Source of the DNA: Candidatus Auribacterota bacterium
Lineage (GTDB): Bacteria; Auribacterota; UBA6266
DNA: 28,173 bases
NCBI GenBank assembly: GCA_023136205.1
Contig: JAGLRQ010000077.1
Span: forward strand, 1-28,173
Direction of reading: 5' to 3'
Shown: in pieces, positions 1 to 14,272 of the stretch
Layout of the letters: every line of letters begins with the position of its first letter
Position numbering within the stretch: position 1 is the first letter of the stretch
Program-made: the position numbers and the translations under genes
Notes under the pieces: generated by a model
What the model was told of the DNA's origin: nothing
Seen by the model: only the letters and a program-made list of their open reading frames with translations
Database searches by the model: none

Positions 1-83
1 AATAGTCGCTGTCCCTATTTTTTCTTACTATTTTTTCTTATTTTTTCTATTTTTTTTACTATTTTTATTTTTTTTATTTTTTT
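1..83 (-). repeat. A/T-rich short-tandem-repeat block with a GGGACAG-containing terminus (sister copy at 7837-7890)
   Basis: Read directly: 1-23 AATAGTCGCTGTCCCTATTTTTT parallels 7837-7859 AATAGGTGTCTGTCCCTATTTTTT. Both continue with CTATTTTTTC-type short repeats. The block ends at ~83, where metallophosphoesterase-like coding sequence begins. Confidence 0.6.
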
Positions 84-212
84 CCGGTAATTAGGCAGGG
101 CTTTTGTCTGCTTACCCAAGTCTTCCAGAAATGCCTTCATGATACTGGATGCACCTTCGGGAGCGTCTTTGCGATAGTGAATGTCTGCCACATGAATAAA
201 TGCGTAGTTCAT
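15..212 (-). pseudogene. 5' fragment of a metallophosphoesterase (calcineurin-like) gene, truncated near nt 84 by the A/T repeat block
   Basis: N-terminus MNYAFIHVADIHY fits metallophosphoesterase motif I (hydrophobic strand followed by D-x-H). Only ~43 authentic codons remain (to ...ALPNYR). The ORF then reads through the repeat as a Lys-rich tail (KKIKKIKIVKK...). Confidence 0.5.
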
Positions 213-335
213 ATATTTTTATTCCTCCTCTGCCTGTCTTCAATAGTCTGCGGTTCTCATTGCTGGCGAGCCGTACAGGCCATCAATGGCCAATGGTTTT
301 ATGCTGGAAGAAAAAGGGGACATCCCCATTCTTTC

Positions 336-689
336 CTACCCATGATGATTTTGCAACCGATAAAGCCCAATGTTTGGGTTACCTGGTGTAATTTTAATTT
401 CACTATTCAACGTTATATTCAGAGAAGATGTTTCAAGAAATGCTATTTCAATATCACGGATCATCTCGGCAGCATCAGATACAACATTGGCAGCGGCATA
501 ATAATTGCCTGCACCTAAACCTGGAGTGCCACGCTCTTCAATAAGTCGGTTCCTTGTTTCTGATGGCAGTTTTTCTAGAATTTGATAGGCTGTTAAATAG
601 GATCGACCACGTTCTCTGGAATCGACACGCATGTCTTCCAGAACACTTGTAACTGCTTCAATAATATCTCTTGGCATAAGGTTAGACAT
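336..689 (-). CDS. hypothetical protein (117 aa)
   Basis: ORF with ATG at 689 preceded by GAGGAAAAAA (SD-like). No family recognised by eye. Confidence 0.6.
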   Translation of the reverse strand: MSNLMPRDIIEAVTSVLEDMRVDSRERGRSYLTAYQILEKLPSETRNRLIEERGTPGLGAGNYYAAANVVSDAAEMIRDIEIAFLETSSLNITLNSEIKITPGNPNIGLYRLQNHHG

Positions 690-779
690 TTTTTTCCTCG
701 TTTCTTTTGAAATTGTCTCTCATGTTTTTTATTCTTGAACACACAATGCTTAATATTTAAGGTATGATCCAATTCTCAT

Positions 780-2069
780 CTATTTTCCCATTACTTTTAA
801 CCACTTCCTCCAACTTTGTTCAAGATTTTTGTATACATCCTTTAATGTTTTTATCTGATCACTGATACTTTTATCTTTGTGTTCTATTATTTCAAGAACT
901 CCTCCAGTAGGCTCGAGTTTAAGTATTGTTATACTTTCAGATTTCTCAAGTAATTGGATATAATCTAATTCAGCAGTTACATTTTCAAGCTGTTCGCATA
1001 ATTTGATTAGTTTTTTCAGTTTCTTCATTCTAGGAAGGCATGCAAACCATCCAATAAAGGCATAAGCATTTATATCATCCATAACAGGTCTTATGTATCT
1101 GTCAAATAAAGCCCATCCATCTCTATTTTCATCTTTGTCTATTAGAAAGGGATATTTTTCCTTTTGTTTGGGAAGATTTTTTGATCCATAAGTGTTAGTT
1201 AGAATATCTATTATTACCCCTAATGAATATCTGTATCTATTTCGTAGCATTCCAACATATTTTTTTTTCGACATCTTCTTATCAATGATTTTTATTGTAG
1301 CATCCTCAATTTTCTTAAGCCTATATCCGGCAATAGATTCAAAAAACTGCCAGTAAATTAGCCCTGTCCCAACAAATAAAGCGACAAAAAGGCCAATCAT
1401 CAAATTATTTATATTATTGCTTAAGATAGAAGAAGTGTATTTATTCACTAAAAATATTAGACAAGTAAAAACTAAAAAAGCACACGCAATTAAAACTGCC
1501 AATTTGAATATGCTTTGGGTTTTTTCTCTTTTTGAAAATAAACCTAATATCGAACCAATACAACCACATAAAATACTTAGCATTAAGAAAAATATTCCCC
1601 AACGTTGTAATTTTCTAATACGATAATCTGAAACCCATCTCATAAAATCATTTTCTTTTGTTTGCAAATAATATTTATCATTCGAACCATAAACAAAAAT
1701 TAGATTTAAAATGTCCAAATATTGCCCGTCCATTAAAAAGATTGTTTGTTCTCTTCTGTTCGTGATTTTCTCAATTGCAATATCTTTTAAAGACGGTATA
1801 TTTATTCTCAGAATATCGCAAACCTCATCAAATGCGTTTTTAAATCCTTTGATGGATGATAATGTTTTTTCCCTTTGCCTACCATCAGGAGACGAGAGTT
1901 CTTTCTCAAAATTAGTCAGTTGATAAACACCTATAGATAGATTCTTAAAAACAGTTTCTTCACAAATTTTGTTCAGAAAGTTATTGTAAGGGGAAAAATT
2001 AATAACAGCGGCACAAATAGCAAAAATAGCAGAAAATACGAACAAAGTTATTATAAAGAGCTTTTTCAC
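780..2069 (-). CDS. hypothetical membrane protein, four predicted TM helices (429 aa)
   Basis: GTG start at 2069 preceded by AGAGGAAA. Hydrophobic helices: LFIITLFVFSAIFAICAAVINF, WGIFFLMLSILCGCIGSILGLF, IFKLAVLIACAFLVFTCLIFLV, LMIGLFVALFVGTGLIYWQFF. The soluble segments are unrecognised. Confidence 0.65.
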   Translation of the reverse strand: MKKLFIITLFVFSAIFAICAAVINFSPYNNFLNKICEETVFKNLSIGVYQLTNFEKELSSPDGRQREKTLSSIKGFKNAFDEVCDILRINIPSLKDIAIEKITNRREQTIFLMDGQYLDILNLIFVYGSNDKYYLQTKENDFMRWVSDYRIRKLQRWGIFFLMLSILCGCIGSILGLFSKREKTQSIFKLAVLIACAFLVFTCLIFLVNKYTSSILSNNINNLMIGLFVALFVGTGLIYWQFFESIAGYRLKKIEDATIKIIDKKMSKKKYVGMLRNRYRYSLGVIIDILTNTYGSKNLPKQKEKYPFLIDKDENRDGWALFDRYIRPVMDDINAYAFIGWFACLPRMKKLKKLIKLCEQLENVTAELDYIQLLEKSESITILKLEPTGGVLEIIEHKDKSISDQIKTLKDVYKNLEQSWRKWLKVMGK

Positions 2070-2309
2070 AAGATATTTCCTCTGTAGTATATCATTCTAA
2101 GATTCTGTTTCACCCGCGTTGCTTAAGCGTAACATCAATATTTTATTGCCACAAGCGTTTATTCAACATCCTGCACGCCTATGCTTTGTGTCAGGTCGGG
2201 GTGAAAGCACTTGCGTAAAAAATGAATTTTTTTGCTTTTAATATATAAAAAGGGGTTACTTTTTTCTACTAAACACGTTATATAGATTGTATCTCAGTTT
2301 TTAGTAATC

Positions 2310-2567
2310 TTAACTGGGTTTTGGAAATTCATTTCGTAGTTCATTCCGTTTTTTTTCATCCATTTTCGAATCAACCCAGATACATTTCCAAGATATTTCT
2401 TCCCCAGACCATCCCGATCTTTGATAAATATTTTTTACCCACGTTTCGACAGTATCTTGCGGAGATTCAATCTTTTCGCCATCTACGTTTCCAAAAAACT
2501 TATGCGTCCCCTCAACCCATCCTCTAGAAGTAAGGTGGTATTCAATTTCAAGGTCATCAACAGCCAT
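2310..2567 (-). CDS. hypothetical small protein (85 aa)
   Basis: ATG at 2567 preceded by GGGGAGG 5 nt upstream. Trp-rich and acidic. No family recognised. Confidence 0.55.
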   Translation of the reverse strand: MAVDDLEIEYHLTSRGWVEGTHKFFGNVDGEKIESPQDTVETWVKNIYQRSGWSGEEISWKCIWVDSKMDEKKRNELRNEFPKPS

Positions 2568-2683
2568 GTCAACCTCCCCTATTATAAAAAATCTAACGAA
2601 AAATCAAATGACCGGAGCAAGCTCCATTTTGCAACGGCCCAATGTATGTTGCTATCAATTCAATGAAACCCATGTCTCATCTT

Positions 2684-2708
2684 GTAAAAGGGGTCAGACC
2701 CCTTTTAC
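2684..2708. other. perfect hairpin GTAAAAGGGGT-CAG-ACCCCTTTTAC overlapping the stop codon of the 2694-3449 gene
   Basis: 11-bp perfect stem with a 3-nt loop. The minus-strand TGA stop (2694-2696) lies in the loop, and a T-run follows on the + strand. The core GGGGTCA(G/A)ACCCCTTTT recurs at 4194-4214. Confidence 0.6.
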
Positions 2709-3449
2709 GATTTTTTCCGTTGCTTCTCTGACTGAGTATTCCCAAATTGAATTGTTGGTAAATGGTGACCTGCTTGGGTGTTGTGGCCACATCACGATTT
2801 TTCCATGACGATATTTCCAGACCCGGTACACCAATCTCTTCTTTTCATATCCTTCAAACTGTATTTCTTCATCTGGTTTATTAAAGTTAATATTCCAATG
2901 ACCTGAGCTTGAAATCCAGTTGTTCACCTCCCTGTCTTTCAGAATTGTATTCAAACCTAACAAAATAATGAATCTTGGCTTTAGATAATCGACAGTTACC
3001 ATGGGTATCCATTCGGCGTACTTTTTCTCAATCACTCTGACTGTTGCTACACCAAATAATCCAACTCCAAAATTGAGATTGCCTGATATTGACATACATT
3101 CTTCAATGCTTAGATCACCACTGTGTTTTCGAATAATTGATTGGTATAGGTGTCTTGCTTTGTTCCAGAATCTCTTTGTGTCTTCGTAGTAGATTTTTTC
3201 GTGAGGGATGCCGCAGGTTGGCGCAGAATATGCAAGTTTGTTCAATACTGTATCTGTTCGATTCGGCGAGTTTCCTGGTGACGGTCCTATTGTCAGCACA
3301 AATGGGTTCACCGATGTCGGCATGCCAAATGGCCAGGGTTCCATTGGAGATGTGTTTGAGATTTCGCCTATTACTCTTTTACGTTCAGATTCAGAAATCT
3401 GCCTTGCAGAATTCAAGCGATCCCTTGGTATGCTACTCCATAGACTCAT
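2694..3449 (-). CDS. uracil-DNA-glycosylase-superfamily-like protein (251 aa; by-eye assignment)
   Basis: Strong SD (GGGGAGGG, 6 nt before ATG 3449). Motif-A-like FVLTIGPSPGNSP (res ~50-62; compare GQDPY / GINPG / GMNPGP / GEAPG of UDG families). Motif-B-like WPQHPSRSPF (res ~221-230; compare HPSPLS / HPSPRN). Spacing is ~170 aa, as in SMUG-type enzymes. Confidence 0.45.
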   Translation of the reverse strand: MSLWSSIPRDRLNSARQISESERKRVIGEISNTSPMEPWPFGMPTSVNPFVLTIGPSPGNSPNRTDTVLNKLAYSAPTCGIPHEKIYYEDTKRFWNKARHLYQSIIRKHSGDLSIEECMSISGNLNFGVGLFGVATVRVIEKKYAEWIPMVTVDYLKPRFIILLGLNTILKDREVNNWISSSGHWNINFNKPDEEIQFEGYEKKRLVYRVWKYRHGKIVMWPQHPSRSPFTNNSIWEYSVREATEKIVKGV

Positions 3450-3492
3450 ATTAAACCCTCCCCATCAGTTGCCTAATGTGGCAATGAGATAT

Positions 3493-3531
3493 CGTAAAAG
3501 ACCGTGAGCAAAGCGAGCGCAGCTTTTCACG
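3493..3531 (-). terminator. possible intrinsic terminator after the 3551-4174 gene
   Basis: Two-part stem CGTGA..AAAGC / GCTTT..TCACG (3503-3531), followed on the minus strand by GTCTTTTAC. The loop shares AGCGAGCGCAGC with the GGGACAGTCC repeat family. Confidence 0.35.
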
Positions 3532-3550
3532 ATCACCTTCGATTGCCTTG

Positions 3551-4174
3551 TTATATTTCGCACTCTGACCAAGCAATACCACCTGAATTCTTCCGATTCA
3601 TTACAACTCCACTTACGTAAATTCTAACGTTGGTGGTTACTTCATGGTGATTATAGTTATTGTTTGCCACATGCACTACAGCAGTACCAGCTGAAAGATT
3701 TTCCAGCTTGGGACCTAGGTGATTCCACCTGCCTCTCATGGTGTGAGTGGGGTTTACGAGTATATCATATGGAAGATCCCGACCGGCTTTAACTAACCCA
3801 TTTTTTGCAAAGCCATCTATCTCACCGCAGATAGCGAATGAAATCATTCGATTACAGATTCTGTGTGTCCGCTCTGGCCAAATATCTTGCAACCGGTCCA
3901 GATTCCTTGCTGTTGGTTTAGTGGCAAATATCTGGTTCGGCATCTTGATCTTCTGCATCGGTGATACCAACCATGGAACTAACCTGCCTTTTCCCGAACC
4001 CGTCTCTACAAATGCCAATACCCCAGACTTCAACACTTTTGAAACACGTATGTAGCTTGGATGGTTCTTGGCATTTCCAGGCAAGACAACGAGGTCGTGA
4101 TCACAGTTACCTAAGAAATGAAGAATTTCCTTTGAGGTCGAAGATTCCAGCGGTGAAATAGCACATATTCTCAT
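3551..4174 (-). CDS. hypothetical protein with weak carbon-nitrogen hydrolase (nitrilase-superfamily)-like features (207 aa)
   Basis: MRICAIS..., DLVVLPG, FAICGEIDGF and DILVNPTH resemble the strand order and Cys motif (hhICyD/E) of CN hydrolases. The Glu of the usual PE motif is not evident (LPG). Confidence 0.35.
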   Translation of the reverse strand: MRICAISPLESSTSKEILHFLGNCDHDLVVLPGNAKNHPSYIRVSKVLKSGVLAFVETGSGKGRLVPWLVSPMQKIKMPNQIFATKPTARNLDRLQDIWPERTHRICNRMISFAICGEIDGFAKNGLVKAGRDLPYDILVNPTHTMRGRWNHLGPKLENLSAGTAVVHVANNNYNHHEVTTNVRIYVSGVVMNRKNSGGIAWSECEI

Positions 4175-4193
4175 AGTAAAGTCTCATTAGGGT

Positions 4194-4214
4194 AAATGGG
4201 GTCAAACCCCTTTT
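4194..4214. other. hairpin AAATGGGGT-CAA-ACCCCTTTT, related to the 2684-2708 hairpin
   Basis: 9-bp stem with one T:T mismatch. Lies 20-40 nt upstream (minus-strand sense) of ATG 4174, with a T-run on the + strand. Confidence 0.5.
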
Positions 4215-4288
4215 CTCTTTATACTCAATTTTTGTGGAAGCACTTACTCCGTATCGGGGTTAAGTAAATTATTATATTGGATATCAAG

Positions 4289-4335
4289 AAAATCCCGGGG
4301 ACACAAGAAAAAATCCCGGGAAAATCCCGGGGACA
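4289..4335 (+). repeat. three closely spaced direct repeats AAAATCCCGGGG(ACA)
   Basis: AAAATCCCGGGGACA at 4289-4303 and 4321-4335, with a shortened AAAAAATCCCGGG at ~4309-4320. Each contains the CCCGGG palindrome, and the last runs into a GGGACAG core. Confidence 0.6.
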
Positions 4336-4407
4336 GAACACTTAATTATTTTTTTGTTCGGGCACCTTATTTTTCCTTCTCAAATTTCCGGCAATTATTT
4401 TGTAGTA

Positions 4408-4433
4408 TTAATTAGAACTATCCCCTTTTTCAC
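4408..4433 (+). repeat. junction module TTAATTAGAACTATCCCCTTTTTCAC (second copy at 15764-15787)
   Basis: Near-identical 24-26-nt match to the sequence immediately 3' of the MFS gene. Confidence 0.6.
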
Positions 4434-4452
4434 ATAACTCATTTTATAAAAA

Positions 4453-4495
4453 CATCTTAACATAAATCCAGCTCTTCTCCATCTTCTAAAATCTT
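4453..4495 (+). repeat. junction module CATCTTAACATAAATCCAGCTCTTCTCCATCTTCTAAAATCTT
   Basis: Also at 14459-14505 and 20771-20813, and diverged at 17028-17062. On the minus strand it encodes the spurious MEKSWIYVKM prefix seen on several track ORFs. Confidence 0.7.
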
Positions 4496-4569
4496 AACAT
4501 TTTAAGGAAACATAACAACAGACATCTCTTTTACTAAATTTCACCAACCCCACACCCCCAACATTCCTT

Positions 4570-4598
4570 TTGACCTGCCGGCACAATTGTTTCATAAT
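4570..4598 (+). promoter_or_regulatory. sigma70-like promoter TTGACC-17nt-CATAAT
   Basis: TTGACC at 4570-4575, CATAAT at 4593-4598, ~38 nt upstream of ATG 4636. Confidence 0.4.
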
Positions 4599-4635
4599 AT
4601 GCAAAATTCGCATTGTTTCGGAGACACAAGCAAGA

Positions 4636-4991
4636 ATGAGAAAGACCGAAAAAATAAAATATGAAATTGACCCGCATAACAGGATTATATTCACAAAAAC
4701 AGGAAGAAAATCAAAGCTTCCCAAATACAGAGGGAATGGAAGGTAAATAAAAGATTAGGTGTCCTGTTTGAAATGCCGCATGAAAAAGGAATCCTTCAGA
4801 GAATTGTCTTTGGAGCAAGCTGCAAGCTGGGCAAAAGTAGCACTGTTGAGTTTAAACTGAGAAATAAACAGGGAAAAGACCTGGGAATAGACATTAAGTT
4901 TTCCAAGAAAACACTAAAAGAGCAGGGGGGAATTTTCTTTCGTGCTGTCACATCAAAAAAAGAGAAGCAATTTTTAATCGGTGGTGGATAG
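4636..4991 (+). pseudogene. internally deleted, frameshifted paralogue of the 14759-15739 repeat-protein gene
   Basis: From ATG 4636, MRKTEKIKYEIDPHNRIIFTKTGRKSKLPKYR matches YEIDPHNRLVFTKTGKKSKLPKFR, then a stop at 4744-4746. A different frame encodes EWKVNKRLGVLFEMPHEKG...KEKQFLIGGG (to 4991), matching the last ~85 residues of the full-length protein. About 0.64 kb of the middle is missing. Confidence 0.75.
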
Positions 4992-5122
4992 AGGTGGTAG
5001 GAAAGAATGGAGAGCAACTATTTTTCTAAAAAGGCAATGGGGCCAGGCTCCCTTCTCTAACCATCCCCACTCTGTGAAAATTACAATACCTTCCCGGTCT
5101 TAAAAATTGTATGCTAAGCTAA

Positions 5123-5150
5123 TTGGAAATATGTTAACCTGAATTAATAT
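5123..5150 (+). promoter_or_regulatory. possible sigma70-like promoter TTGGAA-16nt-TAATAT
   Basis: TTGGAA at 5123-5128, TAATAT at 5145-5150, 25 nt upstream of ATG 5176. SD AAGGTG lies 8 nt upstream of the ATG. Confidence 0.3.
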
Positions 5151-5175
5151 GTAAACGAATTAAAAGGTGACTTAA

Positions 5176-7200
5176 ATGCAAATTGCCAAGAAGTATAAAA
5201 TAGAAGTTAAGAAAGACCACCTTTCAAAAATCGCATCAGGTAGTCCGGAGTTTGCATTGGCCGAGTTGATTTGGAATGCGCTAGATGCAGATGCCAACAA
5301 CATTGAGGTTTGTTTTCATGAAGGACCATTAGGTGTGGATGAAATACTTATTCGAGATAACGGTACCGGCATTGCTTATGATGAAGCCGAAAATCTATTT
5401 GTTTCTCTTGGAGGTTCATGGAAAGCCCAACAACAGAAAACAAAAAAGGGGCGCTTCCTGCATGGGAAAGATGGTGAAGGACGGTTTAAGGCATTCATTT
5501 TAGGTAGGATAGTAGATTGGAATATCATCTATAAAAAAGATAGCCAATTTTTGAGATATACAATTGAAGAGTGTTCCGATTCACTAGATGAATTTAGTTT
5601 AAGCGCTGAGGAAGGAATCATTAATAAACAAACCGGCGTTGAGGTACATATTACTGAGTTAAATAAGAAATTTCATGTGTTGAACAAAGAAAAAGCTATT
5701 GAAAAACTAACCCCAATATTTGCCTTATACTTGAGCAATTATCCATCCGTCAAACTAAGTATTGATGGAACACCAATCAACCCAGATGAGGTCATCCTCC
5801 ACAAGAATAGTTTTTCCTTAGATACTATCAAGGAAGATGGCTCTTTACACCAAGTAGAACTCGAAGTCGTTGAATGGTGTGAAATTAAAGAACGAGAGCT
5901 CTGGTTCTGTAATGCACATGGATTTCCTTTAGAGGTTTATAGTAAACAGATCCGAGGCATTGGCGAATTTGGATTTAGCGGTTATATAAAATCAACGTAT
6001 ATCCAGCACCTTCATTCCCACGGTTTGTTAACATTAGGGGAGTTAAATAAAAATCTAAACCAAGCATGTGAACAAGCTGTTAAGAAAATCAAAGATTATT
6101 TCATAAAAAGAACCCTTGAAAGCGCTCGAGATCAGCTGGAAAAGTGGAAAGAAGAAAAAGTATATCCTTATGTAACTGAACCAGCAACACCTGTTGAGGT
6201 AGCTGAAAGACAAGTATTCGATATCATCGCTATCAACATTAATCAAAGCCTCCCGGATTTTGAGCAGACTGAGAAGAAAACGAAAGCATTTCAATTACGA
6301 ATGCTTCGGCAAGCCGTAGAAAAAAGTCCAGAGGAACTACAGATAATAATAGGCGAAGTTTTACAACTTCCTAAGAAAAAACAAGAACAACTAGCTGAAT
6401 TACTTAAGGATACATCTCTATCCGGGATAATAAGTGCATCTAAACTTGTTACCGATCGACTTAAGTTTCTCTCCGGACTTGAACACATGTTATTTGATAA
6501 AGACGTTAAGAAGCATTTTAAAGAAAGAACCCAATTACATCGCATATTAGCTGATAATACATGGGTTTTTGGACATGCGTTCTCCTTGTCCGTTGATGAT
6601 AAGTCTCTTACCGAAGTCCTTCGCAAGCATATCAATTTATCAGGAAATAATTTACTTGTTGATGCCCCAGTTAAACGGCTTGATGAAAGCATTGGTATTG
6701 TTGATCTTATGTTGTCTCGATCCATTCCAAGAAACCATTCTAATGAACTCGAACATCTTGTAGTTGAGCTGAAAGCTCCGCGTATTAAAATAGGGCAAAA
6801 AGAAATAGAACAAATTAAGAGTTACGCTTTTGCAGCGGCTGGGGACGAGCGGTTTCAAGGCCTAAAGACACGTTGGCATTTTTGGGTAATATCAAATGAC
6901 ATTGATAATTATGCTGAAATAGAGCTAAGTCAGGAGAAGTATGAGGATGGTATCATTTTTAAAACTACAAAAAATATTGACCTAACAATATGGGTTAAGA
7001 CATGGTCACAGCTATTACAAGAGAATAAACACAGACTGGAATTTATTAAAGAAAAGCTAAATTACAACATAGACCGTGAGGATGCCCTTGCATATCTAAA
7101 GAAAACATATGAGGAATATACTCAAGGTCTTATTTTTCCACAAAAAGATGGGCAGAGTGCAGTAAATATTGACAAACAAAAAGAGACAGAAAAGCTTTAG
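5176..7200 (+). CDS. GHKL-superfamily ATPase (MORC / HATPase_c_3-like) with a C-terminal PD-(D/E)xK-type nuclease-like domain (674 aa)
   Basis: N-box ELIWNALDADA, G1 box ILIRDNGTGI and G2-like GKDGEGRFKAF near the N-terminus. The C-terminal region has LHRILADNTWVFGH ... GIVDLMLSR ... EHLVVELKAPRIKIGQKEIEQIKSYA (D...E-x-K arrangement). Confidence 0.65.
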   Translation: MQIAKKYKIEVKKDHLSKIASGSPEFALAELIWNALDADANNIEVCFHEGPLGVDEILIRDNGTGIAYDEAENLFVSLGGSWKAQQQKTKKGRFLHGKDGEGRFKAFILGRIVDWNIIYKKDSQFLRYTIEECSDSLDEFSLSAEEGIINKQTGVEVHITELNKKFHVLNKEKAIEKLTPIFALYLSNYPSVKLSIDGTPINPDEVILHKNSFSLDTIKEDGSLHQVELEVVEWCEIKERELWFCNAHGFPLEVYSKQIRGIGEFGFSGYIKSTYIQHLHSHGLLTLGELNKNLNQACEQAVKKIKDYFIKRTLESARDQLEKWKEEKVYPYVTEPATPVEVAERQVFDIIAININQSLPDFEQTEKKTKAFQLRMLRQAVEKSPEELQIIIGEVLQLPKKKQEQLAELLKDTSLSGIISASKLVTDRLKFLSGLEHMLFDKDVKKHFKERTQLHRILADNTWVFGHAFSLSVDDKSLTEVLRKHINLSGNNLLVDAPVKRLDESIGIVDLMLSRSIPRNHSNELEHLVVELKAPRIKIGQKEIEQIKSYAFAAAGDERFQGLKTRWHFWVISNDIDNYAEIELSQEKYEDGIIFKTTKNIDLTIWVKTWSQLLQENKHRLEFIKEKLNYNIDREDALAYLKKTYEEYTQGLIFPQKDGQSAVNIDKQKETEKL

Positions 7201-7215
7201 AGACACAACACCCAA

Positions 7216-7416
7216 TCACCCAAAAACCCCCTCCCTAACATAAACCTCACAAACATTATCCCTCAGTCTTATCTTGCGGATTTGAGATTTTGGCATCCAG
7301 ATTTTCTCCACATTTTCAACTAAAACAGCTTTTTCAGTTTCATGCAAGATACGGATCTGAACCCAGACATATCCGGGTTTTGAATATAACAACCTGTAAA
7401 TGCTAAATGGCCACAT
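7216..7416 (-). CDS. hypothetical small protein (66 aa)
   Basis: ATG at 7416 preceded by AAAGGAG 8 nt upstream. Sequence ...HETEKAVLVENVEKIWMPKSQI... . No family assigned. Confidence 0.55.
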   Translation of the reverse strand: MWPFSIYRLLYSKPGYVWVQIRILHETEKAVLVENVEKIWMPKSQIRKIRLRDNVCEVYVREGVFG

Positions 7417-7435
7417 AATGTTGACTCCTTTCTAA

Positions 7436-7822
7436 GAAAAATGGGACAGTCCACGCGCTTGCTATGCTCGCTTGGGACAGTCCCTCTTTTTCTCTCTCCT
7501 ATTGAATAAGTACGCCTTTTTGGCGGTTTTGGGGTCTACGCTTAAGGATTTTGCCTATATCGGTATCCGACATGCCTAATAGATGTAATTCTGTGGCTTT
7601 TTGGGCTAACTTCTGGTATATATGAGGACACTCTACAGGTAGTATTTTGATATGGGCATGGATTTCAGCAATGGTTCGAATTGGTAGTGACCGGGTCCAC
7701 CATTCCGCCTTCGCTAGGAATTGGGTGTTTCATTCCAGAAGCTATGTCGGGCAAGTCCCCAAGAAAATGGGGAAAGTCCCAAGCGAACGCAGTGAGCGGG
7801 TGGACTGTCCCTTTTTTCTTTG
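7436..7822. mobile_element. MITE-like element: ~60-bp inverted copies of the GGGACAGTCC hairpin module flanking a degenerate HTH-encoding ORF
   Basis: The left arm (7436-7495) and the reverse complement of the right arm (7761-7822) are ~80% identical. The interior (7514-7683) is ~90% identical to 17425-17594. On the minus strand it encodes ...YQKLAQKATELHLLGMSDTDIGK... with a 1-nt indel relative to the other copy and no start codon. Confidence 0.45.
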
Positions 7823-7836
7823 TCGTCGAGAAATTT

Positions 7837-7890
7837 AATAGGTGTCTGTCCCTATTTTTTCCCCCTATTTTTTCCCTATTTTTTCCTACT
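7837..7890 (-). repeat. left boundary of the R-M cassette: 18-bp inverted-repeat arm plus CTATTTTTTC-type repeats
   Basis: 7837-7854 AATAGGTGTCTGTCCCTA is the exact reverse complement of 13122-13139 TAGGGACAGACACCTATT. It is followed by TTTTTTCCCCCTATTTTTTCCCTATTTTTTCC. Confidence 0.65.
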
Positions 7891-7998
7891 CATTATTATC
7901 TGGGATATTTAGACCATCAATCTCAAAAGATTCTTCACTTTTGAAAAGTCTAAAATTTTTGATTGTGATTTTTTTAATAAACATATTTTAAGTAAAAA

Positions 7999-9525
7999 TT
8001 ATACAATACTATATAAGGCTTCATTGCTTTCCAAATGCCCTAAAAATTCTTCAATTGTTTTTGGAGAGATGAAAAGATTATCCGTTTGCCTCACATAGTC
8101 AATTTGCTTTACAGAATCACTAAAAATACTTGGTGCAACAAAATAGCACATTGAATTTTTTGCTTTCTTTCCAAATTCTTCCAAATGCCTGCTAATAGGC
8201 CATACTTCCATCATCGTTTGTGTCCGCCCCTCGGACATTGTTACTTCAATCAAAATTCCGTTTACATCCTCAAAACACTCAATATCACCAGTATTGCCAA
8301 CACCTCCCGCTGTTGATGTAGGAATACCCTCATCATCAATAGGATAGTTTGGGATTACTTTCACATCTGGAAATTTTGATTTGACTGCTAATGCAGTCAA
8401 AAACTCAAGTCGTGTTGGATTAGAGAGATATTTTAAAGTCTCATCTTTACTTAATCGTTTATTTGATAAATTCAACATTTCTATTTTTATTTTATCCCAA
8501 GCATAAACACCCACCCACTTTGTTAAGAATTTATCTTGTTCCGAAACAGAAACTGCTTTTGGTACAAATGAAATAAGATTTTTATCAACTATTGAGATGT
8601 ACTCAAAATAACTTTCTTCCGTGTCGTATTTTTTGTATTCAGAATAATTTCCTAAAACATAATCAACTTTTTCTTGCTCGTTTTTGTTTATATCAATAAA
8701 TCGTCCACCACCACGCAAAGAAATAAGCCCAGTTAATCGCATTTTTCTGATAAACTCATCAGGGTAATCAACCAAAATAGACTTATCATCTCTAACGATG
8801 TCTTTACCCTCCATGATTTCATCTCTGCAAATTTCAGCTATGACTTCCCAACTTGGAGAATAGCCAAAATCTTGCCGAAGCTTCTTGATCCTTTGATACA
8901 ACTTTTTTGCATCGTTGTCTTTCCAATAAATTATTAAAGGTAATTCTAGTTTAGAAATTCCTGCATCATTACATTCATCATCTGCGTTGAGCTTAGTAAT
9001 TACTTGAAGCAATAAAACCAGTGGCACATTTTCATTTAAAACTCTGCGAAAAGGACTATTGCTCTGATATTTAACAAAAGCATTCAGGAATGCTTGTTGC
9101 TCAAATTCTGGATGTTCATTATCAACAAGCTTCAATCCTATTTCGGAAAATCGTATTTTCTCCCCCGATTTGTAAAAAACAAAACCTAACTCTTTGGCAA
9201 TTTTGAACCATGTATCAAAACGAGAAGGCCATCCCCAACTAAATCCTGCCTCTTTATGATTTTGTGGATTATCTTCTAAAACTTTGGAAACGTCTTTATC
9301 TGTCAAAGGCTCTTTTGTTTTGATTTTCTTTTTTACACTTATTGACAATCTTGTCGGTCTGTACAGTCCAATTCTAATTATTTCGCCTGCAATTTTTTCT
9401 GCTAATTCGTTATTAAGAATTTGCCCGTCATAATCTTTCAAGATGCCAAGAAACCACTTTAACCGCTCAGGATTTCTAAGTGTTGTGGTAAATAATAATG
9501 GCTTGTATTTTGATTTGTTAGGCAT
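7999..9525 (-). CDS. AlwI/BstNBI/MlyI/PleI-family type IIS restriction (or nicking) endonuclease (508 aa)
   Basis: N-terminal LLFTTTLRNPERLKWFLGILKDYDG resembles the family N-terminus. C-terminal PTSTAGGVGNTGDIECFEDVNGILIEVTMSEGRTQTMMEVWPISRH matches, from my memory of N.BstNBI, P.THAAGNQPDMEIIYEDFIVLGEVTTSKGATQFKMESEPVTRH. Confidence 0.8.
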   Translation of the reverse strand: MPNKSKYKPLLFTTTLRNPERLKWFLGILKDYDGQILNNELAEKIAGEIIRIGLYRPTRLSISVKKKIKTKEPLTDKDVSKVLEDNPQNHKEAGFSWGWPSRFDTWFKIAKELGFVFYKSGEKIRFSEIGLKLVDNEHPEFEQQAFLNAFVKYQSNSPFRRVLNENVPLVLLLQVITKLNADDECNDAGISKLELPLIIYWKDNDAKKLYQRIKKLRQDFGYSPSWEVIAEICRDEIMEGKDIVRDDKSILVDYPDEFIRKMRLTGLISLRGGGRFIDINKNEQEKVDYVLGNYSEYKKYDTEESYFEYISIVDKNLISFVPKAVSVSEQDKFLTKWVGVYAWDKIKIEMLNLSNKRLSKDETLKYLSNPTRLEFLTALAVKSKFPDVKVIPNYPIDDEGIPTSTAGGVGNTGDIECFEDVNGILIEVTMSEGRTQTMMEVWPISRHLEEFGKKAKNSMCYFVAPSIFSDSVKQIDYVRQTDNLFISPKTIEEFLGHLESNEALYSIV

Positions 9526-9529
9526 AATT

Positions 9530-10435
9530 TTAATAGTTAGTAATCAAAACTTCTTTGATTTTTTTCTTTCCGTTATTATGATAACTGATGTAATTACTTT
9601 TAATATTGTGGACTTTATATTTTTTCATCCACTTAATCAATAAGTCATTTTTACTTCCGTTGTAATGAGTTACATTTGACAAAGCAAATTTAACACCTTT
9701 TTTGTTTAATTCATCAATCAAATTAAGTAAATCTGTCTCTGCTTTCTCATTCCATAGTTTATTGTACTCACTTGAAGTAATAATATATGGCGGATCAATA
9801 TAAACAAAGTCATTCTTTGAGTATTCATTTTTCTCAAAGAACTTTCTAAAGTCCTTTATTGTAAATTTAATTTTTTTGTCTATGACAAAATCAAAATAGT
9901 TATTAAGTGCATTTACTACATTCTTATTGAAGTCAACATTCCCAACAGGTAAATTAAATTTACCGCCGCCATTGAATCGTAGCATTCTGTTAAAACCATA
10001 GATTAACAAAATGTATAAAATAAGAGGATCATTTTTTTTGTTTTTATTTACGCAAATTCGCAGTTTCTCATAGCCCTCTTTATTAAACCTTGCGTAATAA
10101 GTTTTTTTAAATTCTTTTTTGAGAGAATCTGGAACGATATCTTTTTTGTATGAGTGAGATAATTTATATTTATGAATAATTTTCTCAACATCTTCAAAAA
10201 AATTCTCTGGATTTTTTGCATTAGAAATCAAAAGCTTGTGTATGTTCACGAGATGTTTGTCTATGTCATTTAAAAAATACTTATTTGCTTTAATATTCAA
10301 AAATACCGTACCTCCTCCCGCAAATGGTTCGTAAAAACTATTTATTTCTTGCGGAAACAAATCTAAAAGTTGTCTCATTAGCCGATATTTATCCCCAACA
10401 TAAAAGAGGGGTGATCTTTTTATTTCTTTATTCAT
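9530..10435 (-). CDS. Dam-family (D12 class) N6-adenine DNA methyltransferase (301 aa)
   Basis: FYVGDKYRL...YEPFAGGGTVFLN (motif I), FVYIDPPY (motif IV) and ALSN, collinear with E. coli Dam. The start overlaps the upstream gene's stop (ATGA at 10432-10435). Confidence 0.9.
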   Translation of the reverse strand: MNKEIKRSPLFYVGDKYRLMRQLLDLFPQEINSFYEPFAGGGTVFLNIKANKYFLNDIDKHLVNIHKLLISNAKNPENFFEDVEKIIHKYKLSHSYKKDIVPDSLKKEFKKTYYARFNKEGYEKLRICVNKNKKNDPLILYILLIYGFNRMLRFNGGGKFNLPVGNVDFNKNVVNALNNYFDFVIDKKIKFTIKDFRKFFEKNEYSKNDFVYIDPPYIITSSEYNKLWNEKAETDLLNLIDELNKKGVKFALSNVTHYNGSKNDLLIKWMKKYKVHNIKSNYISYHNNGKKKIKEVLITNY

Positions 10436-12240
10436 GATTTTGTGTTTGTTACAAATAAGTATTCCTTGTGATTATTAAAATCAGTATTTCCAGCATTAAA
10501 ATGTCTATAATCTTTTTCAAAAACTTTTGTTTTTCCTTTCTTGCTTAAAATTTTCTTGATTTCTTCAAGTGTAATTTTATTTTTTGATGAATTACTTTTT
10601 GATTCATAAGTATTGTTATATGACACCACTAAGTAGTTTGCATTTATATCATTGACTAATTCCGCAAATCTATCTTTTGCACTTACTCGACAATAATCAC
10701 TCATGTTTTCTGGTTCTGGCTTCAACGCTACTCCGTGCAACTCTGGCTTATCCCACTTTGTAAGTGTTTCAAGCACATGATAAAACCTGCTGTATTGCCG
10801 TGAATTATAAGGCGGATCAATATAAACAATATCTGTCTGAATTTGTTTTGCGAACGAATTTGCGTCTTCTCTAAAAATTAACACCTCTTTGGCTTCAATG
10901 GGGTTTATTGGTCGCATAAAAAAGTTATCGTCAACAAATTCTTTTTTGAAATAGGCATCATAATGCCCAACAGTATTTGCAATTTTATCAATGGAATAAA
11001 GCAAAGATGAAATTAACATGCTATATTCTCGCTTAGTAAGATTTTCTCGGTTTTTTTCAATGTTCTCTCGGATAAATCCAATAATTTTTGCTGAATTTTT
11101 TGAGAAATATTTACCACCAAAATTTATTGAAAAATAGTTTTCATCCAAATCTTCTCCGTTGATATTATTATAGTCTCTTATAATAATATTAGTTTTTTCT
11201 TGGTTCCACTTACCATTGTCAAAAAATGCTTTATAAATGGCTTGATTTGAGTGTAGAAAATCATTCAAAATGATTTTGTCAAAATGTTTACTTGCTACAG
11301 CGGCAACAACTCCGGTTCCAGCAAAAATATCTGTAAATGATTTTCCCTCGCATTCTTTATCAAGAATAGAAAAAATCCACTCTATCAGTTTATGTTTATT
11401 GCCAATATATCTACGATTTTGTAATTGAAAATGATTTTTTTTTATTTGCGGAACATGAAAATAAGTTTCTTGAATTTTTTCTGCACTTATCTCATATGCT
11501 GGCTTTTCAATTTCTAGCAAGTCAAAAAGTGTTCCCTGTACTCCCTCTGCAACATAATCAAGATTTTTATTTTTATCTCCTAGTTCTTTAAAAAAACTAT
11601 AGTGCTTATTTCCTGCAACAATAATAAAATCAGTAATCTCTATTCCATTTATTTTTCCTGCATAAGAAATTCTATCTACAATACTTTTATCCTGCTTGCT
11701 AGGATTTGGATTTCCTGTTGGATGATTATGAACTAAAATAATTGAGGAAGCGTTCAGACGAAAAGCAGGTTCAAAAATTTCTCTTGGGTGAAAAAGAGTT
11801 TTATCTACAAGCCCCACACTAATAACCTCTTTTTTAATAAGAACATTTCTTGCATCCAAATATAAACAAACAAGATATTCTTTTTTCTTATCTCTCAAAT
11901 CATAGGTAAGCGATAGAACATCTTGAGATTTTTTTATTGTAATTTCACTTGATTGACCATCTTCATAAAACCTTTTGACTAAAGAAATTGCCGCTGCAAT
12001 TTGCAATGCTTTTGCTGGTCCAATTCCGTCAACGGTCTGCAAATCTTTGACTGTTACATCCAAAAAAGTTTTGCTAAATTTATTAATAATTTGTTGTGCA
12101 AGTTTTTGAACATTTTTTCCTTTTATTCCGCTTCCAAGAACAATTGCCAAAAGATCACTTTTTGAAAGTGCTTGTGGACCTTTTTTGAGAAATTTTTCTC
12201 GCGGTCTATCAACTTTTGGAATATCTTTAATCTTTGTCAT
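10432..12240 (-). CDS. fusion protein: N-terminal RadC-like JAB/MPN domain + C-terminal D12-class N6-adenine DNA methyltransferase (602 aa)
   Basis: Res ~1-220: DRPREKFL, LLAIVLGSG, VDGIGPAKALQI (HhH), HPREIF, LVHNHPTGNPNPSKQD (RadC JAB motif). Res ~270-602: RRYIGNKHKL, DIFAGTGVV (motif I), IVYIDPPYNSRQY (motif IV), VVSYNN. This is a single uninterrupted ORF. Confidence 0.85.
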   Translation of the reverse strand: MTKIKDIPKVDRPREKFLKKGPQALSKSDLLAIVLGSGIKGKNVQKLAQQIINKFSKTFLDVTVKDLQTVDGIGPAKALQIAAAISLVKRFYEDGQSSEITIKKSQDVLSLTYDLRDKKKEYLVCLYLDARNVLIKKEVISVGLVDKTLFHPREIFEPAFRLNASSIILVHNHPTGNPNPSKQDKSIVDRISYAGKINGIEITDFIIVAGNKHYSFFKELGDKNKNLDYVAEGVQGTLFDLLEIEKPAYEISAEKIQETYFHVPQIKKNHFQLQNRRYIGNKHKLIEWIFSILDKECEGKSFTDIFAGTGVVAAVASKHFDKIILNDFLHSNQAIYKAFFDNGKWNQEKTNIIIRDYNNINGEDLDENYFSINFGGKYFSKNSAKIIGFIRENIEKNRENLTKREYSMLISSLLYSIDKIANTVGHYDAYFKKEFVDDNFFMRPINPIEAKEVLIFREDANSFAKQIQTDIVYIDPPYNSRQYSRFYHVLETLTKWDKPELHGVALKPEPENMSDYCRVSAKDRFAELVNDINANYLVVSYNNTYESKSNSSKNKITLEEIKKILSKKGKTKVFEKDYRHFNAGNTDFNNHKEYLFVTNTKS

Positions 12241-12242
12241 AG

Positions 12243-13091: not shown

Positions 13092-13121
13092 AATTATTTT
13101 TCGTAGGGAATTAGCGGGAAT

Positions 13122-13139
13122 TAGGGACAGACACCTATT
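13122..13139 (+). repeat. right boundary of the R-M cassette: 18-bp inverted-repeat arm TAGGGACAGACACCTATT
   Basis: Exact reverse complement of 7837-7854. Preceded by GGGAATTAG x2. Confidence 0.7.
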
Positions 13140-13141
13140 TC

Positions 13142-13261
13142 CTATTCGCTTCCCTCATCTTTTTCTTCCAAAAACTTATCTTCTTTAATTTTCTTACTTA
13201 CTTTCTCAGCTATTGAATCTGTTGCATCTTCAACAATATCATTCACTGGTTCGAATAACCA
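13142..13261 (-). pseudogene. 3' fragment (39 codons + stop) of a paralogue of the small acidic protein gene at 14273-14434
   Basis: The minus strand reads WLFEPVNDIVEDATDSIAEKVSKKIKEDKFLEEKDEGSE*, versus WLFEPVNDIIEDATDSIAEKVSKKIKEDKLLEEEDEGNE* in the intact copy. There is no start codon, and the fragment abuts the stop of the 13266-14153 gene. Confidence 0.65.
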
Positions 13262-13265
13262 TATC

Positions 13266-14153: not shown

Positions 14154-14272
14154 TTCTCACACCCCCTAAATTATATTATTCCTGTTTTCAAAAGAACCAT
14201 CTTTAAATATTGGACCCAGTGTTCCATCAGCATCATAACTAATTTAACTAATTAGTGATAGACACCTATTCC

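What the first reader, a model, noticed from the sequence alone, without database searches (positions are those of the whole stretch)
2684..4214. UDG-superfamily-like + nitrilase-like gene pair bracketed by two copies of the hairpin GGGGTCA(G/A)ACCCCTTTT
The 251-aa protein shows UDG-type motif A (TIGPSPG) and motif B (QHPSRSP) at SMUG-like spacing. It sits in a defence-type neighbourhood rather than with repair genes. Some glycosylases of this superfamily act on modified phage bases rather than on uracil. Its upstream neighbour (207 aa) has a Cys motif, FAICGEIDGF, reminiscent of CN hydrolases. The pair is delimited by two related strong hairpins. 2684-2708 is a perfect 11-bp stem overlapping the stop codon. 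4194-4214 lies just upstream of the first start. In both, the T-runs are on the + strand, which is antisense to the genes. A two-gene module with matching boundary hairpins suggests a portable unit or antisense-transcript terminators protecting it.
Basis: partly seen in the sequence, partly recalled or inferred. Interest (0 to 1): 0.65.

Follow-up and report, generated by a model that had tools for sequence, protein, structure and literature searches.

The report
Two unlinked orphan defence-island genes
Two neighbouring genes in a bacterial anti-phage island encode a probable new, very divergent branch of the uracil-DNA-glycosylase superfamily and a stripped-down nitrilase-fold protein, but they are chance neighbours, not a portable two-gene module.

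Summary
The sequence features are real: both ORFs, both motif sets, the defence-island setting and two copies of a 23-nt hairpin sequence (21/23 identical).

The fold guesses hold up. The 207-aa protein (A207) has a confident nitrilase-superfamily fold. It keeps the Cys of FAICGE, but appears to lack the canonical catalytic Glu (LPG in place of LPE) and Lys.

The 251-aa protein (B251) belongs to an unannotated family of at least 248 clusters. Several weak, concordant lines place the family in the UDG superfamily:
- UDGs are the recurring named Foldseek matches.
- One family member nearly reaches the Pfam UDG cut-off.
- A profile-profile match to family-4 UDGs lands on motif A (P=0.002).
- All four hallmark positions are colinear.

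The module idea fails its own refutation test. About 17 independent B251-family loci and about 12 A207-family loci never contain the other gene, and neither family has any recurrent partner. DNA homology to the closest relatives stops at each ORF's edges. Three hairpins, including one between the two genes, sit exactly in those junctions. The hairpins therefore look like junction or terminator elements, not boundaries of a unit.

B251 is most likely a stand-alone Brig-type antiviral DNA glycosylase candidate. The function of A207 is unknown.

The parts
3551..4174 (-). A207: a 207-aa compact, divergent nitrilase-superfamily-fold protein. Cys115 (in FAICGE) is invariant. G32 and P78 occupy the positions where nitrilases carry the catalytic Glu and Lys.
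   Evidence: ORF and translation. No Pfam, NCBIfam, PADLOC or PHROG hit. 45 homologous clusters at 37-79% identity. AF2 pLDDT 91.8. Foldseek against PDB gives 41 hits with E<=1e-3, all nitrilase superfamily; the best is 9wpn at 6.6e-7. Conservation. hhalign aligns DLIVLPG with LVVLPE.
2694..3449 (-). B251: a 251-aa member of an unannotated family that is probably a new branch of the UDG superfamily. Motif A is GPSPGNS (54-60), the strand-2 Asn is N125, strand 3 is LLGL (162-165), and motif B is WPQHPSR (220-226).
   Evidence: ORF and translation. Family size 248 representative clusters and 103 clusters, none with a Pfam domain. AF2 pLDDT 84. UDG matches by Foldseek. Bridging member P0279. Profile-profile comparison P=0.0021 with controls.
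2684..2708 (.). Hairpin H1: a perfect 11-bp palindromic stem with a 3-nt loop, A4/T4 arms, and a T6 run after it on the + strand. It is like a bidirectional intrinsic terminator and overlaps the last three codons and stop codon of B251.
   Evidence: It lies just outside the DNA homology to the closest B251 relatives, which ends at 2709. The C-termini of those relatives differ.
4192..4214 (.). Hairpin H2: a degenerate copy of H1 (21/23 identical) with only a 5-bp G+C stem. It lies 24-36 nt upstream of the A207 start codon and is followed by TTTTCTCTTT on the + strand.
   Evidence: It lies just outside the homology to the closest A207 relative, which ends at 4187. It is absent upstream of nine other A207 homologues.
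3496..3534 (-). Hairpin H3 with a UUUU tail, in the 101-bp spacer between A207 and B251. It is a terminator-like element that separates the two genes.
   Evidence: RNA fold of 3480-3545 (-) gives -18.6 kcal/mol, z -1.9; the 101-nt spacer gives z -2.1. It lies between the two homology blocks, 3545-4187 and 2709-3476.

Best explanation
The segment holds two unrelated single-gene units that happen to lie side by side in a mosaic anti-phage island. Each unit is horizontally mobile on its own.

B251 is a member of a previously unannotated family that is a far-diverged branch of the uracil-DNA-glycosylase superfamily. Its layout is strand 1 followed by G-x-S-P-G-N-S, a conserved Asn after strand 2, and a last strand followed by W-P-(Q/N)-H-P-S-R. 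It has no Fe-S cysteines. The most likely function (inferred, not shown) is a stand-alone DNA glycosylase that flips out and excises a non-canonical, probably modified-pyrimidine, base from invading phage DNA. That would leave abasic sites that block replication, as Brig1, Brig2 and Brig3 do.

A207 is a separate, compact protein with the nitrilase-superfamily sandwich fold. It keeps an invariant Cys-x-Glu and about a dozen other invariant polar residues, including His143. It has Gly and Pro where nitrilases have the catalytic Glu and Lys. If it is an enzyme, it uses a non-canonical active site. Its substrate is unknown.

The three hairpins sit in the junctions between the units. H1 and H3 most likely act as intrinsic terminators that insulate each gene. 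H2 is a decayed duplicate of H1, left at the other junction.
For: Shown:
- No co-occurrence. tblastn of both proteins over all fetched loci finds 0 of about 17 informative B251-family loci with an A207 homologue. It finds 0 of about 12 A207-family loci with a B251 homologue.
- Only contigs of the same population repeat the pair.
- The closest B251 relative (87% nt identity) matches window 3476-2709 only and has an unrelated 334-aa gene upstream.
- The closest A207 relative (79% nt identity) matches 4187-3545 only and is followed by an unrelated 238-aa gene.
- Neither family has a recurrent neighbour.
- A207 fold: Foldseek probability 1.00 to 41 nitrilase-superfamily chains.

B251 as UDG-like:
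- 1ui0 is rank 3 against PDB.
- UDG-like viral proteins are ranks 3 and 4 in BFVD, with probabilities 0.91 and 0.77.
- P0279 matches the family profile at E 7.6e-11 and hhalign 98.3%. It also matches Pfam UDG PF03167 at E 9.7e-5, 22.9 bits against a cut-off of 24.3.
- An independent family-4 profile hits P0279 at E 1.7e-4.
- hhalign of the family against a 77-sequence family-4 profile gives P=0.0021 on strand 1 plus motif A. The extended alignment is colinear through strand 2, strand 3 and H-P.
- Controls gave P 0.18-0.8, and 30 block shuffles all gave P>=0.006.

Context and hairpins:
- Defence context.
- G+C of the pair is 41-44%, against 27-37% in the neighbouring island genes.
- Hairpin energies.
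- Precedent for single-gene UDG-superfamily defence glycosylases: PMC11078745; bioRxiv 10.1101/2025.10.29.685425; bioRxiv 10.64898/2026.02.25.707755.
Against: - No single line for the UDG assignment is significant on its own. Foldseek E-values are 0.0018-0.11 and TM 0.37-0.48. Top PDB hits also include DUF1537 and MoaB/MoeA folds.
- The B251 family profile finds no PDB sequence at E<=10.
- hhalign probability is only 13%.
- The position of the catalytic Asp/Asn of UDG families 1-3 is a Ser.
- No activity, substrate or phage phenotype is known.
- The contexts of the B251 family are mixed. They include housekeeping-looking neighbourhoods.
- The mapping of A207 residues onto the nitrilase tetrad rests on a low-probability alignment (2.5%) plus secondary-structure order. 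It does not rest on a structural superposition.
- The near-identity of H1 and H2 flanking exactly these two genes is not explained by simple terminator function.
Confidence: 0.55

Rival explanations
1. This is a functional two-gene system of the Brig3-BapA type. A207, an amidase-like hydrolase, removes an amide-linked decoration from a hypermodified phage base. B251 then excises the exposed base. The pairing is recent and so far confined to this lineage.
For: The genes are adjacent, on the same strand and 101 bp apart, inside a defence island. Their G+C is similar to each other and unlike the flanks. The pair is kept in all six contigs of this population. There is a precedent for a glycosylase with an accessory base-trimming hydrolase (bioRxiv 10.64898/2026.02.25.707755). 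Nitrilase-superfamily enzymes are typically amidases, which is established knowledge.
Against: No co-occurrence in about 29 independent loci. Each gene travels alone, with homology breakpoints at its own edges. A terminator-like hairpin lies between them. B251 has its own strong Shine-Dalgarno sequence, GGAGG. A207 lacks the canonical amidase Glu and Lys. BapA is an ASCH protein and is unrelated to A207.
Confidence: 0.08
2. The two matching hairpins are the ends of a portable unit. They would be recombination sites or a duplicated target, such as attL/attR-like cores or integron-like cassette boundaries, that moved both genes together.
For: 23-nt direct repeats, 21/23 identical, bracket the pair, and an additional shared GTCTCAT lies a few bases upstream of each. 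The pair has a distinct G+C. Chance expectation for the 13-mer is 0.02.
Against: No recombinase or transposase lies in or next to the segment. There is no attC-like R''/R' structure in the window. The motif is absent from all other loci of either family. Each gene has its own breakpoints, and a third, different hairpin lies between them. H1 reads into the B251 C-terminus, which differs from that of its relatives. This suggests local origin of the hairpin.
Confidence: 0.1
3. B251 is not a DNA glycosylase. Either it has another Rossmann-like three-layer fold (MoaB/CinA-like or DUF1537-like) and the motif resemblance is convergent. Or it is a UDG-fold protein with a non-excision role, such as DNA binding, UdgX-like cross-linking or housekeeping repair of ordinary lesions.
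For: The top Foldseek PDB hits include DUF1537 and MoaB/MoeA at E-values similar to the UDG hit. No hit reaches Pfam's gathering score. Ser replaces the catalytic Asp/Asn. Some homologues sit among housekeeping genes.
Against: UDG is the only fold that recurs in both structure libraries and in sequence-profile tests. Four hallmark positions are colinear and nearly invariant across 65 diverse members. Many homologues lie in islands or mobile elements.
Confidence: 0.2

Closest known systems
Brig1, Brig2 and Brig3: UDG-superfamily antiviral DNA glycosylases (PMC11078745; bioRxiv 10.1101/2025.10.29.685425; bioRxiv 10.64898/2026.02.25.707755)
   Same: They are small, mostly single-gene proteins found in defence islands or mobile regions. 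They are annotated as hypothetical. Their similarity to family-4 UDGs is only distant and mostly structural. Brig1's best structural match was the S. tokodaii family-4 UDG. B251's only named PDB match is the T. thermophilus family-4 UDG.
   Different: No sequence or structural comparison with the Brig proteins could be made here. The B251 motifs (GxSPGNS and WP(Q/N)HPSR) and its roughly 50-residue N-terminal helical extension were not found in those papers' supplements. No substrate or phenotype is known for B251.
Family-4 UDG (Pfam PF03167; 1ui0, 1l9g, 4zbx)
   Same: The order of elements is the same: strand 1 then G-x-x-P-G, helix, strand 2 then Asn, helix, strand 3 then (L)G, beta-hairpin, last strand then H-P, C-terminal helix. 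The profile-profile match lands on motif A.
   Different: B251 has no 4Fe-4S cysteine ligands. It has GPSPG in place of GE(A/G)PG. It carries insertions of about 10 residues after motif A. It is not detectable by Pfam or by PDB sequence profiles.
SMUG1 (UDG family 3)
   Same: The motif A to motif B spacing is about 169 residues, close to the SMUG1 spacing of about 155 (the latter from memory). The motif shapes G-x-x-P-G and H-P-S-x-x are shared.
   Different: Ser stands where SMUG1 has the catalytic Asn (GMNPG). No detectable sequence similarity was found. No SMUG1 structure appears among the Foldseek matches listed.
Nitrilase / CN-hydrolase superfamily (Pfam PF00795; for example 9wpn CJ1056C, AmiF 2e2k, Nit2 2w1v)
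   Same: A207 has the four-layer alpha-beta-beta-alpha fold. An invariant Cys lies in a hydrophobic-strand-C-x-E context like ICYD/ICWE. The DLIVLPG strand is equivalent to LVVLPE.
   Different: A207 is 207 aa, against 260-340 aa. There is no Pfam hit. Gly stands at the catalytic Glu position and Pro at the Lys position. The second Glu was not identified. Additional invariant residues are His143, Asn140, Arg101 and Arg183.
Brig3-BapA operon
   Same: It pairs a glycosylase gene with a neighbouring hydrolase gene in a defence island.
   Different: BapA is an ASCH-fold deglucosylase whose gene overlaps brig3. Here the hydrolase-fold gene comes first. It is separated from B251 by a terminator-like hairpin, and the pairing is not conserved.

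Membership tests
UDG superfamily | Three-layer alpha/beta/alpha fold with a four-stranded parallel sheet, detectable by structure comparison | tested here: inconclusive
   The AF2 model (pLDDT 84) has the expected order of strands and helices. By Foldseek, 1ui0 is rank 3 at E 0.11, probability 0.66, TM 0.39/0.48. Named UDG-like viral proteins in BFVD are ranks 3 and 4 at E 8.7e-3 and 4.2e-2, probabilities 0.91 and 0.77. No match reaches E<=1e-3.
UDG superfamily | Motif A (G-x-x-P-G/Y) directly after strand 1 | tested here: met
   GPSPG at 54-58 follows strand 50-54. G54, S56, P57 and G58 are at least 90% conserved in 65 members. They align to GEAPG of family 4.
UDG superfamily | Motif B (H-P-S...) directly after the last core strand | tested here: met
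   HPS at 223-225 follows strand 215-219. P221, H223 and P228 are nearly invariant. H223-P224 align to H155-P156 of 1ui0 in the extended alignment.
UDG superfamily | Conserved Asn after strand 2 (base-recognition position) | tested here: met
   N125 is at least 90% conserved and follows strand 121-125.
UDG superfamily | Significant match to the family profile (Pfam PF03167) | tested here: inconclusive
   B251 itself gives no hit. One of 65 members hits at E 0.072. Family member P0279 hits at E 9.7e-5, 22.9 bits, just under the 24.3-bit cut-off. P0279 is tied to the family at hhalign 98.3%. Family versus family-4 profile gives P 0.0021.
UDG superfamily | N-glycosidic bond cleavage (base excision) activity | not testable with these tools
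   This needs an enzyme assay.
UDG family 4/5 | Four Cys ligands of a 4Fe-4S cluster | tested here: not met
   The B251 family has no conserved cysteines. Family-4 sequences have invariant C13, C16 and C100.
UDG family 3 (SMUG1) | Catalytic Asn in GMNPG and sequence similarity to SMUG1 | tested here: not met
   Ser56 occupies that position. No PDB sequence was matched by the family profiles. Only the motif spacing resembles SMUG1.
Brig1/Brig2/Brig3 defence glycosylases | Homology to a Brig protein and protection against phages with modified bases | not testable with these tools
   The Brig sequences are not in the accessible collections. The B251 motifs are absent from the supplements. PADLOC 2023 predates the Brig proteins.
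Nitrilase / CN-hydrolase superfamily | Alpha-beta-beta-alpha sandwich fold | tested here: met
   AF2 pLDDT 91.8. Foldseek gives 41 PDB chains at E<=1e-3, all nitrilase superfamily, probability 1.00, TM 0.5-0.6.
Nitrilase / CN-hydrolase superfamily | Match to Pfam PF00795 or to solved nitrilase sequences | tested here: not met
   No Pfam hit. The family profile finds no nitrilase in PDB sequences. hhalign against four PDB nitrilases gives probability 2.5%, P 0.019; controls gave 0.18-0.35.
Nitrilase / CN-hydrolase superfamily | Catalytic Cys after a hydrophobic strand (ICxD/E) | tested here: met
   C115, G116 and E117 are invariant in 41 sequences, within SFAICGE after strand 108-112.
Nitrilase / CN-hydrolase superfamily | Catalytic Glu at the end of strand 2 (hhhhPE) and catalytic Lys (RKxHLF) | tested here: not met
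   Strand 2 ends in LPG, and G32 is at least 90% conserved. It is aligned to LPE by hhalign. MPNQIF stands where RKIHLF is expected; this is a manual mapping by secondary-structure order. The alignment has low confidence, so a structural superposition is still needed.
Conserved two-gene defence module | Co-occurrence of the two families in independent genomes | tested here: not met
   No co-occurrence in about 29 independent loci. There is no recurrent partner for either family.
Integron cassette / site-specific mobile unit | attC-type imperfect palindromes (RYYYAAC...GTTRRRY) or a nearby recombinase | tested here: not met
   A crude attC scan found none on either strand. No integrase or transposase domain is present in the window.

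The most novel reading that the evidence does not exclude
The B251 family would be a new, eighth-or-later family of the UDG superfamily that works as a single-gene antiviral glycosylase with a Ser-based motif A and a novel modified-base specificity. In this lineage it would have newly recruited A207, a Cys-His-type descendant of the nitrilase fold. A207 would act as a pre-processing amidase that strips an amide-linked decoration from hypermodified phage DNA. Candidate decorations are acetylaminomethyl-dU, glutamyl- or putrescinyl-thymine, carbamoylmethyl-adenine and 7-amido-7-deazaguanine. B251 could then excise the exposed base.
Probability: 0.05. Interest if true: 0.8.

Novelty: new variant of a known kind. 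Interest (0 to 1): 0.4.

Why it matters
Antiviral DNA glycosylases are a mechanism recognised only since 2024 (Brig1-3 and the Dag families). The known ones were found by functional screens or structure-guided searches, because sequence methods miss them.

B251 represents a sizeable family of at least 248 clusters at 50% identity, spread across many phyla. The family has no Pfam domain and no annotation. It carries UDG hallmarks and is often found in islands or mobile elements. It is therefore a concrete, testable candidate for a further defence glycosylase family with an unusual Ser in the catalytic motif.

A207 shows that the nitrilase fold exists in a 207-residue form without the canonical Glu-Lys pair, which is of interest for the evolution of enzyme folds.

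The work also gives a clean negative result. Matching hairpins around neighbouring genes do not make a module. Here they mark the seams between independently shuffled single-gene units.

Tried and rejected
- Pfam, NCBIfam, PADLOC and PHROGs on both proteins gave nothing.
- PDB sequence searches with single sequences and family profiles gave nothing relevant.
- hhalign against shallow PDB-derived alignments gave only 6% and 2.5% probability. Global mode failed.
- Fusion partners in longer B251 homologues have no Pfam domains.
- tblastn found neither family in plasmids (PLSDB), phage genomes (INPHARED) or IMG/VR.
- Rfam and tRNA scans of the window found nothing.
- An integron attC scan found none.
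- I looked for a conserved hairpin upstream of A207 homologues, or the GGGGTCARACCCC motif in other loci. It was absent.
- I looked for a + strand promoter that could feed the hairpins as antisense terminators. None lies inside the pair, and promoter-like sites are not above chance (45 found against 53 expected).
- BapA-like identity for A207 is rejected, because BapA is an ASCH fold.
- The motif strings were not found in the Brig1 or Getz et al. supplements.
- The genome-wide frequency of the hairpin could not be tested. Only this 28-kb contig and overlapping contigs of the same population were reachable.
Full report
**Observation**

The window carries two ORFs on the minus strand. A207 lies at 3551-4174 (207 aa). 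B251 lies 101 bp downstream at 2694-3449 (251 aa).
- B251 contains TIGPSPG (residues 51-57) and QHPSRSP (222-228).
- A207 contains FAICGEIDGF (112-121).

GGGGTCAGACCCC (2690-2702) and GGGGTCAAACCCC (4198-4210) are the only two such sites in 28 kb. Chance expectation is 0.02. The shared sequence is 23 nt, 21/23 identical.

H1 (2684-2708) is a perfect 11-bp stem with a 3-nt loop. It contains the last three codons and the stop codon of B251. Because it is a palindrome with A4/T4 arms, it folds equally well on both strands (-16 and -17.5 kcal/mol). It therefore looks like a bidirectional intrinsic terminator, not a purely antisense one.

H2 is much weaker. It has a 5-bp stem, with z -0.7 on the gene strand and -2.05 on the + strand.

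A third hairpin with a UUUU tail, H3 (stem 3500-3534), lies between the two genes.

The neighbourhood (about 1-14,200) is a genuine defence island. It holds an AlwI-type restriction enzyme, two D12 methyltransferases (one fused to RadC), PDC-S14, PDC-S18 and a HATPase_c_3 protein. Housekeeping-type genes follow.

**What the two proteins are**

Neither protein hits Pfam, NCBIfam, PADLOC or PHROGs.

*A207.* It has 45 homologous clusters (37-79% identity), all unnamed. They come from Methylococcaceae, Azomonas, Pseudomonas, Thioalkalispiraceae, Desulfobacterota and others.
- The AF2 model is confident (pLDDT 91.8).
- Foldseek against PDB returns 41 chains with E<=1e-3, all from the nitrilase superfamily. 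Best is 9wpn at 6.6e-7, probability 1.00.
- Membership in the catalytic sense is doubtful. Cys115-Gly-Glu117 is invariant.
- The strand that ends in the catalytic Glu of nitrilases (LVVLPE) reads LVVLPG here, with Gly32 at least 90% conserved. hhalign aligns the two, though weakly: P 0.019, against controls of 0.18-0.35.
- By secondary-structure order, RKIHLF corresponds to MPNQIF, so there is no Lys.
- Twelve further invariant polar residues, including His143 in NPTHT, argue for a real but non-canonical active site. This last point is inference.

*B251.* A single-sequence search finds only 12 clusters. A profile finds 248 representative clusters at E<=1e-3 and 103 90%-identity clusters. Every one lacks a Pfam domain, and where a name exists it is "hypothetical".

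Evidence for the UDG superfamily is made of several weak, concordant pieces:
1. The AF2 model (pLDDT 84) has the UDG order of elements.
2. Foldseek puts T. thermophilus family-4 UDG at rank 3 in PDB (E 0.11). Named UDG-like viral proteins are at ranks 3 and 4 in BFVD, with probabilities 0.91 and 0.77, followed by several phage polymerases.
3. P0279 is clearly a family member (E 7.6e-11; hhalign 98.3% over 196 columns). It hits Pfam UDG at E 9.7e-5, 22.9 bits against a 24.3-bit cut-off. It also hits an independent family-4 profile at E 1.7e-4.
4. I built a 77-sequence family-4 profile from verified PDB sequences and IMG/VR loci. hhalign of the B251 family against it gives P 0.0021, exactly on strand 1 plus motif A.
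5. With a permissive setting, that alignment runs colinearly through strand 2, the helix-strand 3 "LrPrvVVl.GL" segment, and H223-P224 onto H155-P156 of 1ui0.
6. Mismatched-family controls gave P 0.18-0.8, and none of 30 block-shuffled profiles reached 0.0021.

The hallmark residues G54, S56, P57, G58, N125, P221 and H223 are at least 90% conserved among 65 diverse members.

Against this, no single test is significant by usual thresholds. Other Rossmann-like folds score similarly in PDB. Ser occupies the position of the catalytic Asp/Asn. There are no Fe-S cysteines.

I put about 80% on "UDG-superfamily fold" and about 40% on "antiviral base-excision enzyme".

**Is it a module?**

No. I fetched several sets of loci:
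- 22 metagenome loci of the B251 family.
- 8 genome loci of the A207 family.
- 13 further contexts for relatives of the two genes, plus six contigs of the window's own population.

tblastn with both proteins over all of them shows no locus with both genes. About 17 B251 loci have enough upstream sequence to be informative, and about 12 A207 loci have enough downstream sequence. Only six contigs of the same population repeat the arrangement.

The closest relatives are decisive:
- L035 (87% nt identity) matches window 3476-2709 only and has an unrelated 334-aa gene upstream.
- L047 (79% nt identity) matches 4187-3545 only and is followed by an unrelated 238-aa gene.

Downstream neighbours of A207 homologues are all different. 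Fifty neighbour ORFs of B251 homologues show no recurrent family.

Contexts are often islands or mobile elements. They include HEPN proteins, AbiTii, ThsB-TIR, AAA_13, transposases and T4SS genes. They are not exclusively so.

Neither family occurs in PLSDB plasmids, INPHARED phages or IMG/VR.

**The hairpins**

H2, H3 and H1 lie precisely in the three seams defined by the homology breakpoints: beyond 4187, between 3545 and 3476, and below 2709.
- H1 runs into the B251 reading frame. The C-terminus differs from those of its relatives (...KIVKGV against ...AKIK and ...EKIKL). H1 therefore belongs to the locus, not to the gene.
- The motif is absent from every other locus.
- No conserved hairpin precedes other A207 genes.
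- There is no attC-like site, no recombinase, no Rfam family and no tRNA.

The most economical reading is that these are terminator or insulator elements at junctions of independently acquired single-gene units. H2 would be a decayed duplicate of H1. Why H1 and H2 are so similar remains unexplained, and the genome-wide frequency could not be tested.

**Comparison with what is known, and verdict**

The nearest functional analogues of B251 are the Brig1/2/3 UDG-superfamily defence glycosylases. Those are likewise only distantly UDG-like and sit in defence islands. Membership of those families could not be tested.

The Brig3-BapA operon is a precedent for "glycosylase plus trimming hydrolase". 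However, BapA has an ASCH fold and the pairing here is not conserved.

Overall verdict:
- The fold intuitions are largely right.
- The module and boundary interpretation is not supported.

What remains of value is a sizeable unannotated UDG-like family that is a candidate antiviral glycosylase, and a minimal, non-canonical nitrilase-fold family. Interest is moderate (0.4). Both are new variants of known kinds.

Noticed in passing
window 4277-4340: There are three closely spaced copies of AAAATCCCGGG(GACA), each containing the palindrome CCCGGG. They lie in the roughly 600-bp divergent region between A207 and the 72-aa/HATPase_c_3 genes. They are candidate operator sites. One arrangement is also flagged as a terminator-like hairpin on the - strand.
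   Followed up: no
window 780-2069 (-) and 2310-2567 (-): Two further orphan genes (429 aa and 85 aa) lie downstream of H1. Their G+C is about 30%. They have no Pfam, PADLOC or PHROG family. The only signals are a weak SLATT hit (E 0.026) for the 429-aa protein and a weak SSB-like PHROG hit (E 0.004) for the 85-aa protein. They may be another uncharacterised defence pair.
   Followed up: partly
window 10432-12240 (-): A 602-aa fusion joins an N-terminal RadC/JAB domain (with UPF0758_N and HhH) to a D12-class adenine methyltransferase. It sits next to a second D12 methyltransferase and an AlwI-type endonuclease. This is an unusual architecture for a type II R-M system.
   Followed up: partly
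window 5176-7200 (+): A 674-aa protein carries an N-terminal HATPase_c_3 (GHKL ATPase) domain and a weak HSDR_N_2 nuclease-like domain. It is preceded by a 72-aa ORF (4773-4991). PADLOC gives only weak type II REase hits.
   Followed up: no
L005 1652-2137 (-): In the metagenome locus with the 75%-identical B251 homologue, the convergent neighbouring ORF (161 aa) matches the central part of my family-4 UDG profile. The score is 14.5 bits, E 8e-7 for one sequence, over '...YINVFKCP...KPKTVVLL'. Two UDG-like genes therefore sit side by side there.
   Followed up: partly
L031 5968-6628 (Candidatus Electrothrix aarhusensis): The A207 homologue is split into two frames and is probably a pseudogene. 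It is flanked on both sides by related G+C-rich palindromes containing CAGCCGACGC...GCG(C)GGCTG/GGTCGG. Three loci (L002, L027, L031) share (G)TTATAT(C/T)TCAC directly upstream of the start codon.
   Followed up: no
window 2702-2711 (+) and 3487-3496 (-): The 10-mer CTTTTACGAT follows the stem of H1 on the + strand and follows the stem of H3 on the - strand. The two junction hairpins thus share a tail sequence in opposite orientation. This may be chance.
   Followed up: no
window 2557-2716 (+): A promoter-like site (TCAACA-17-TATTAT, 2557-2585) lies about 100 nt upstream of H1, which has its best T-run on this strand. Together they could define a + strand RNA of about 125 nt, antisense to the 5' leader of the 85-aa gene. 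Promoter-like sites are not above chance in this region.
   Followed up: no
L040, L047, L048 (A207-family loci): Neighbours of A207 homologues include proteins with R-x4-6-H motifs typical of HEPN domains (L040 up186 and dn307, possibly L047 dn238). They also include two tandem ThsB_TIR + 8xMP pairs (L048), AbiTii and an NgoFVII-like nuclease (L040).
   Followed up: no
L041-L046 against the window: Contigs of the same population from sister samples carry the same gene order. One variant (L042) has an HTH gene where the window has PDC-S14 and PDC-S18. All of these contigs end near the window's left end. This suggests island microheterogeneity and a repeat at that edge.
   Followed up: no
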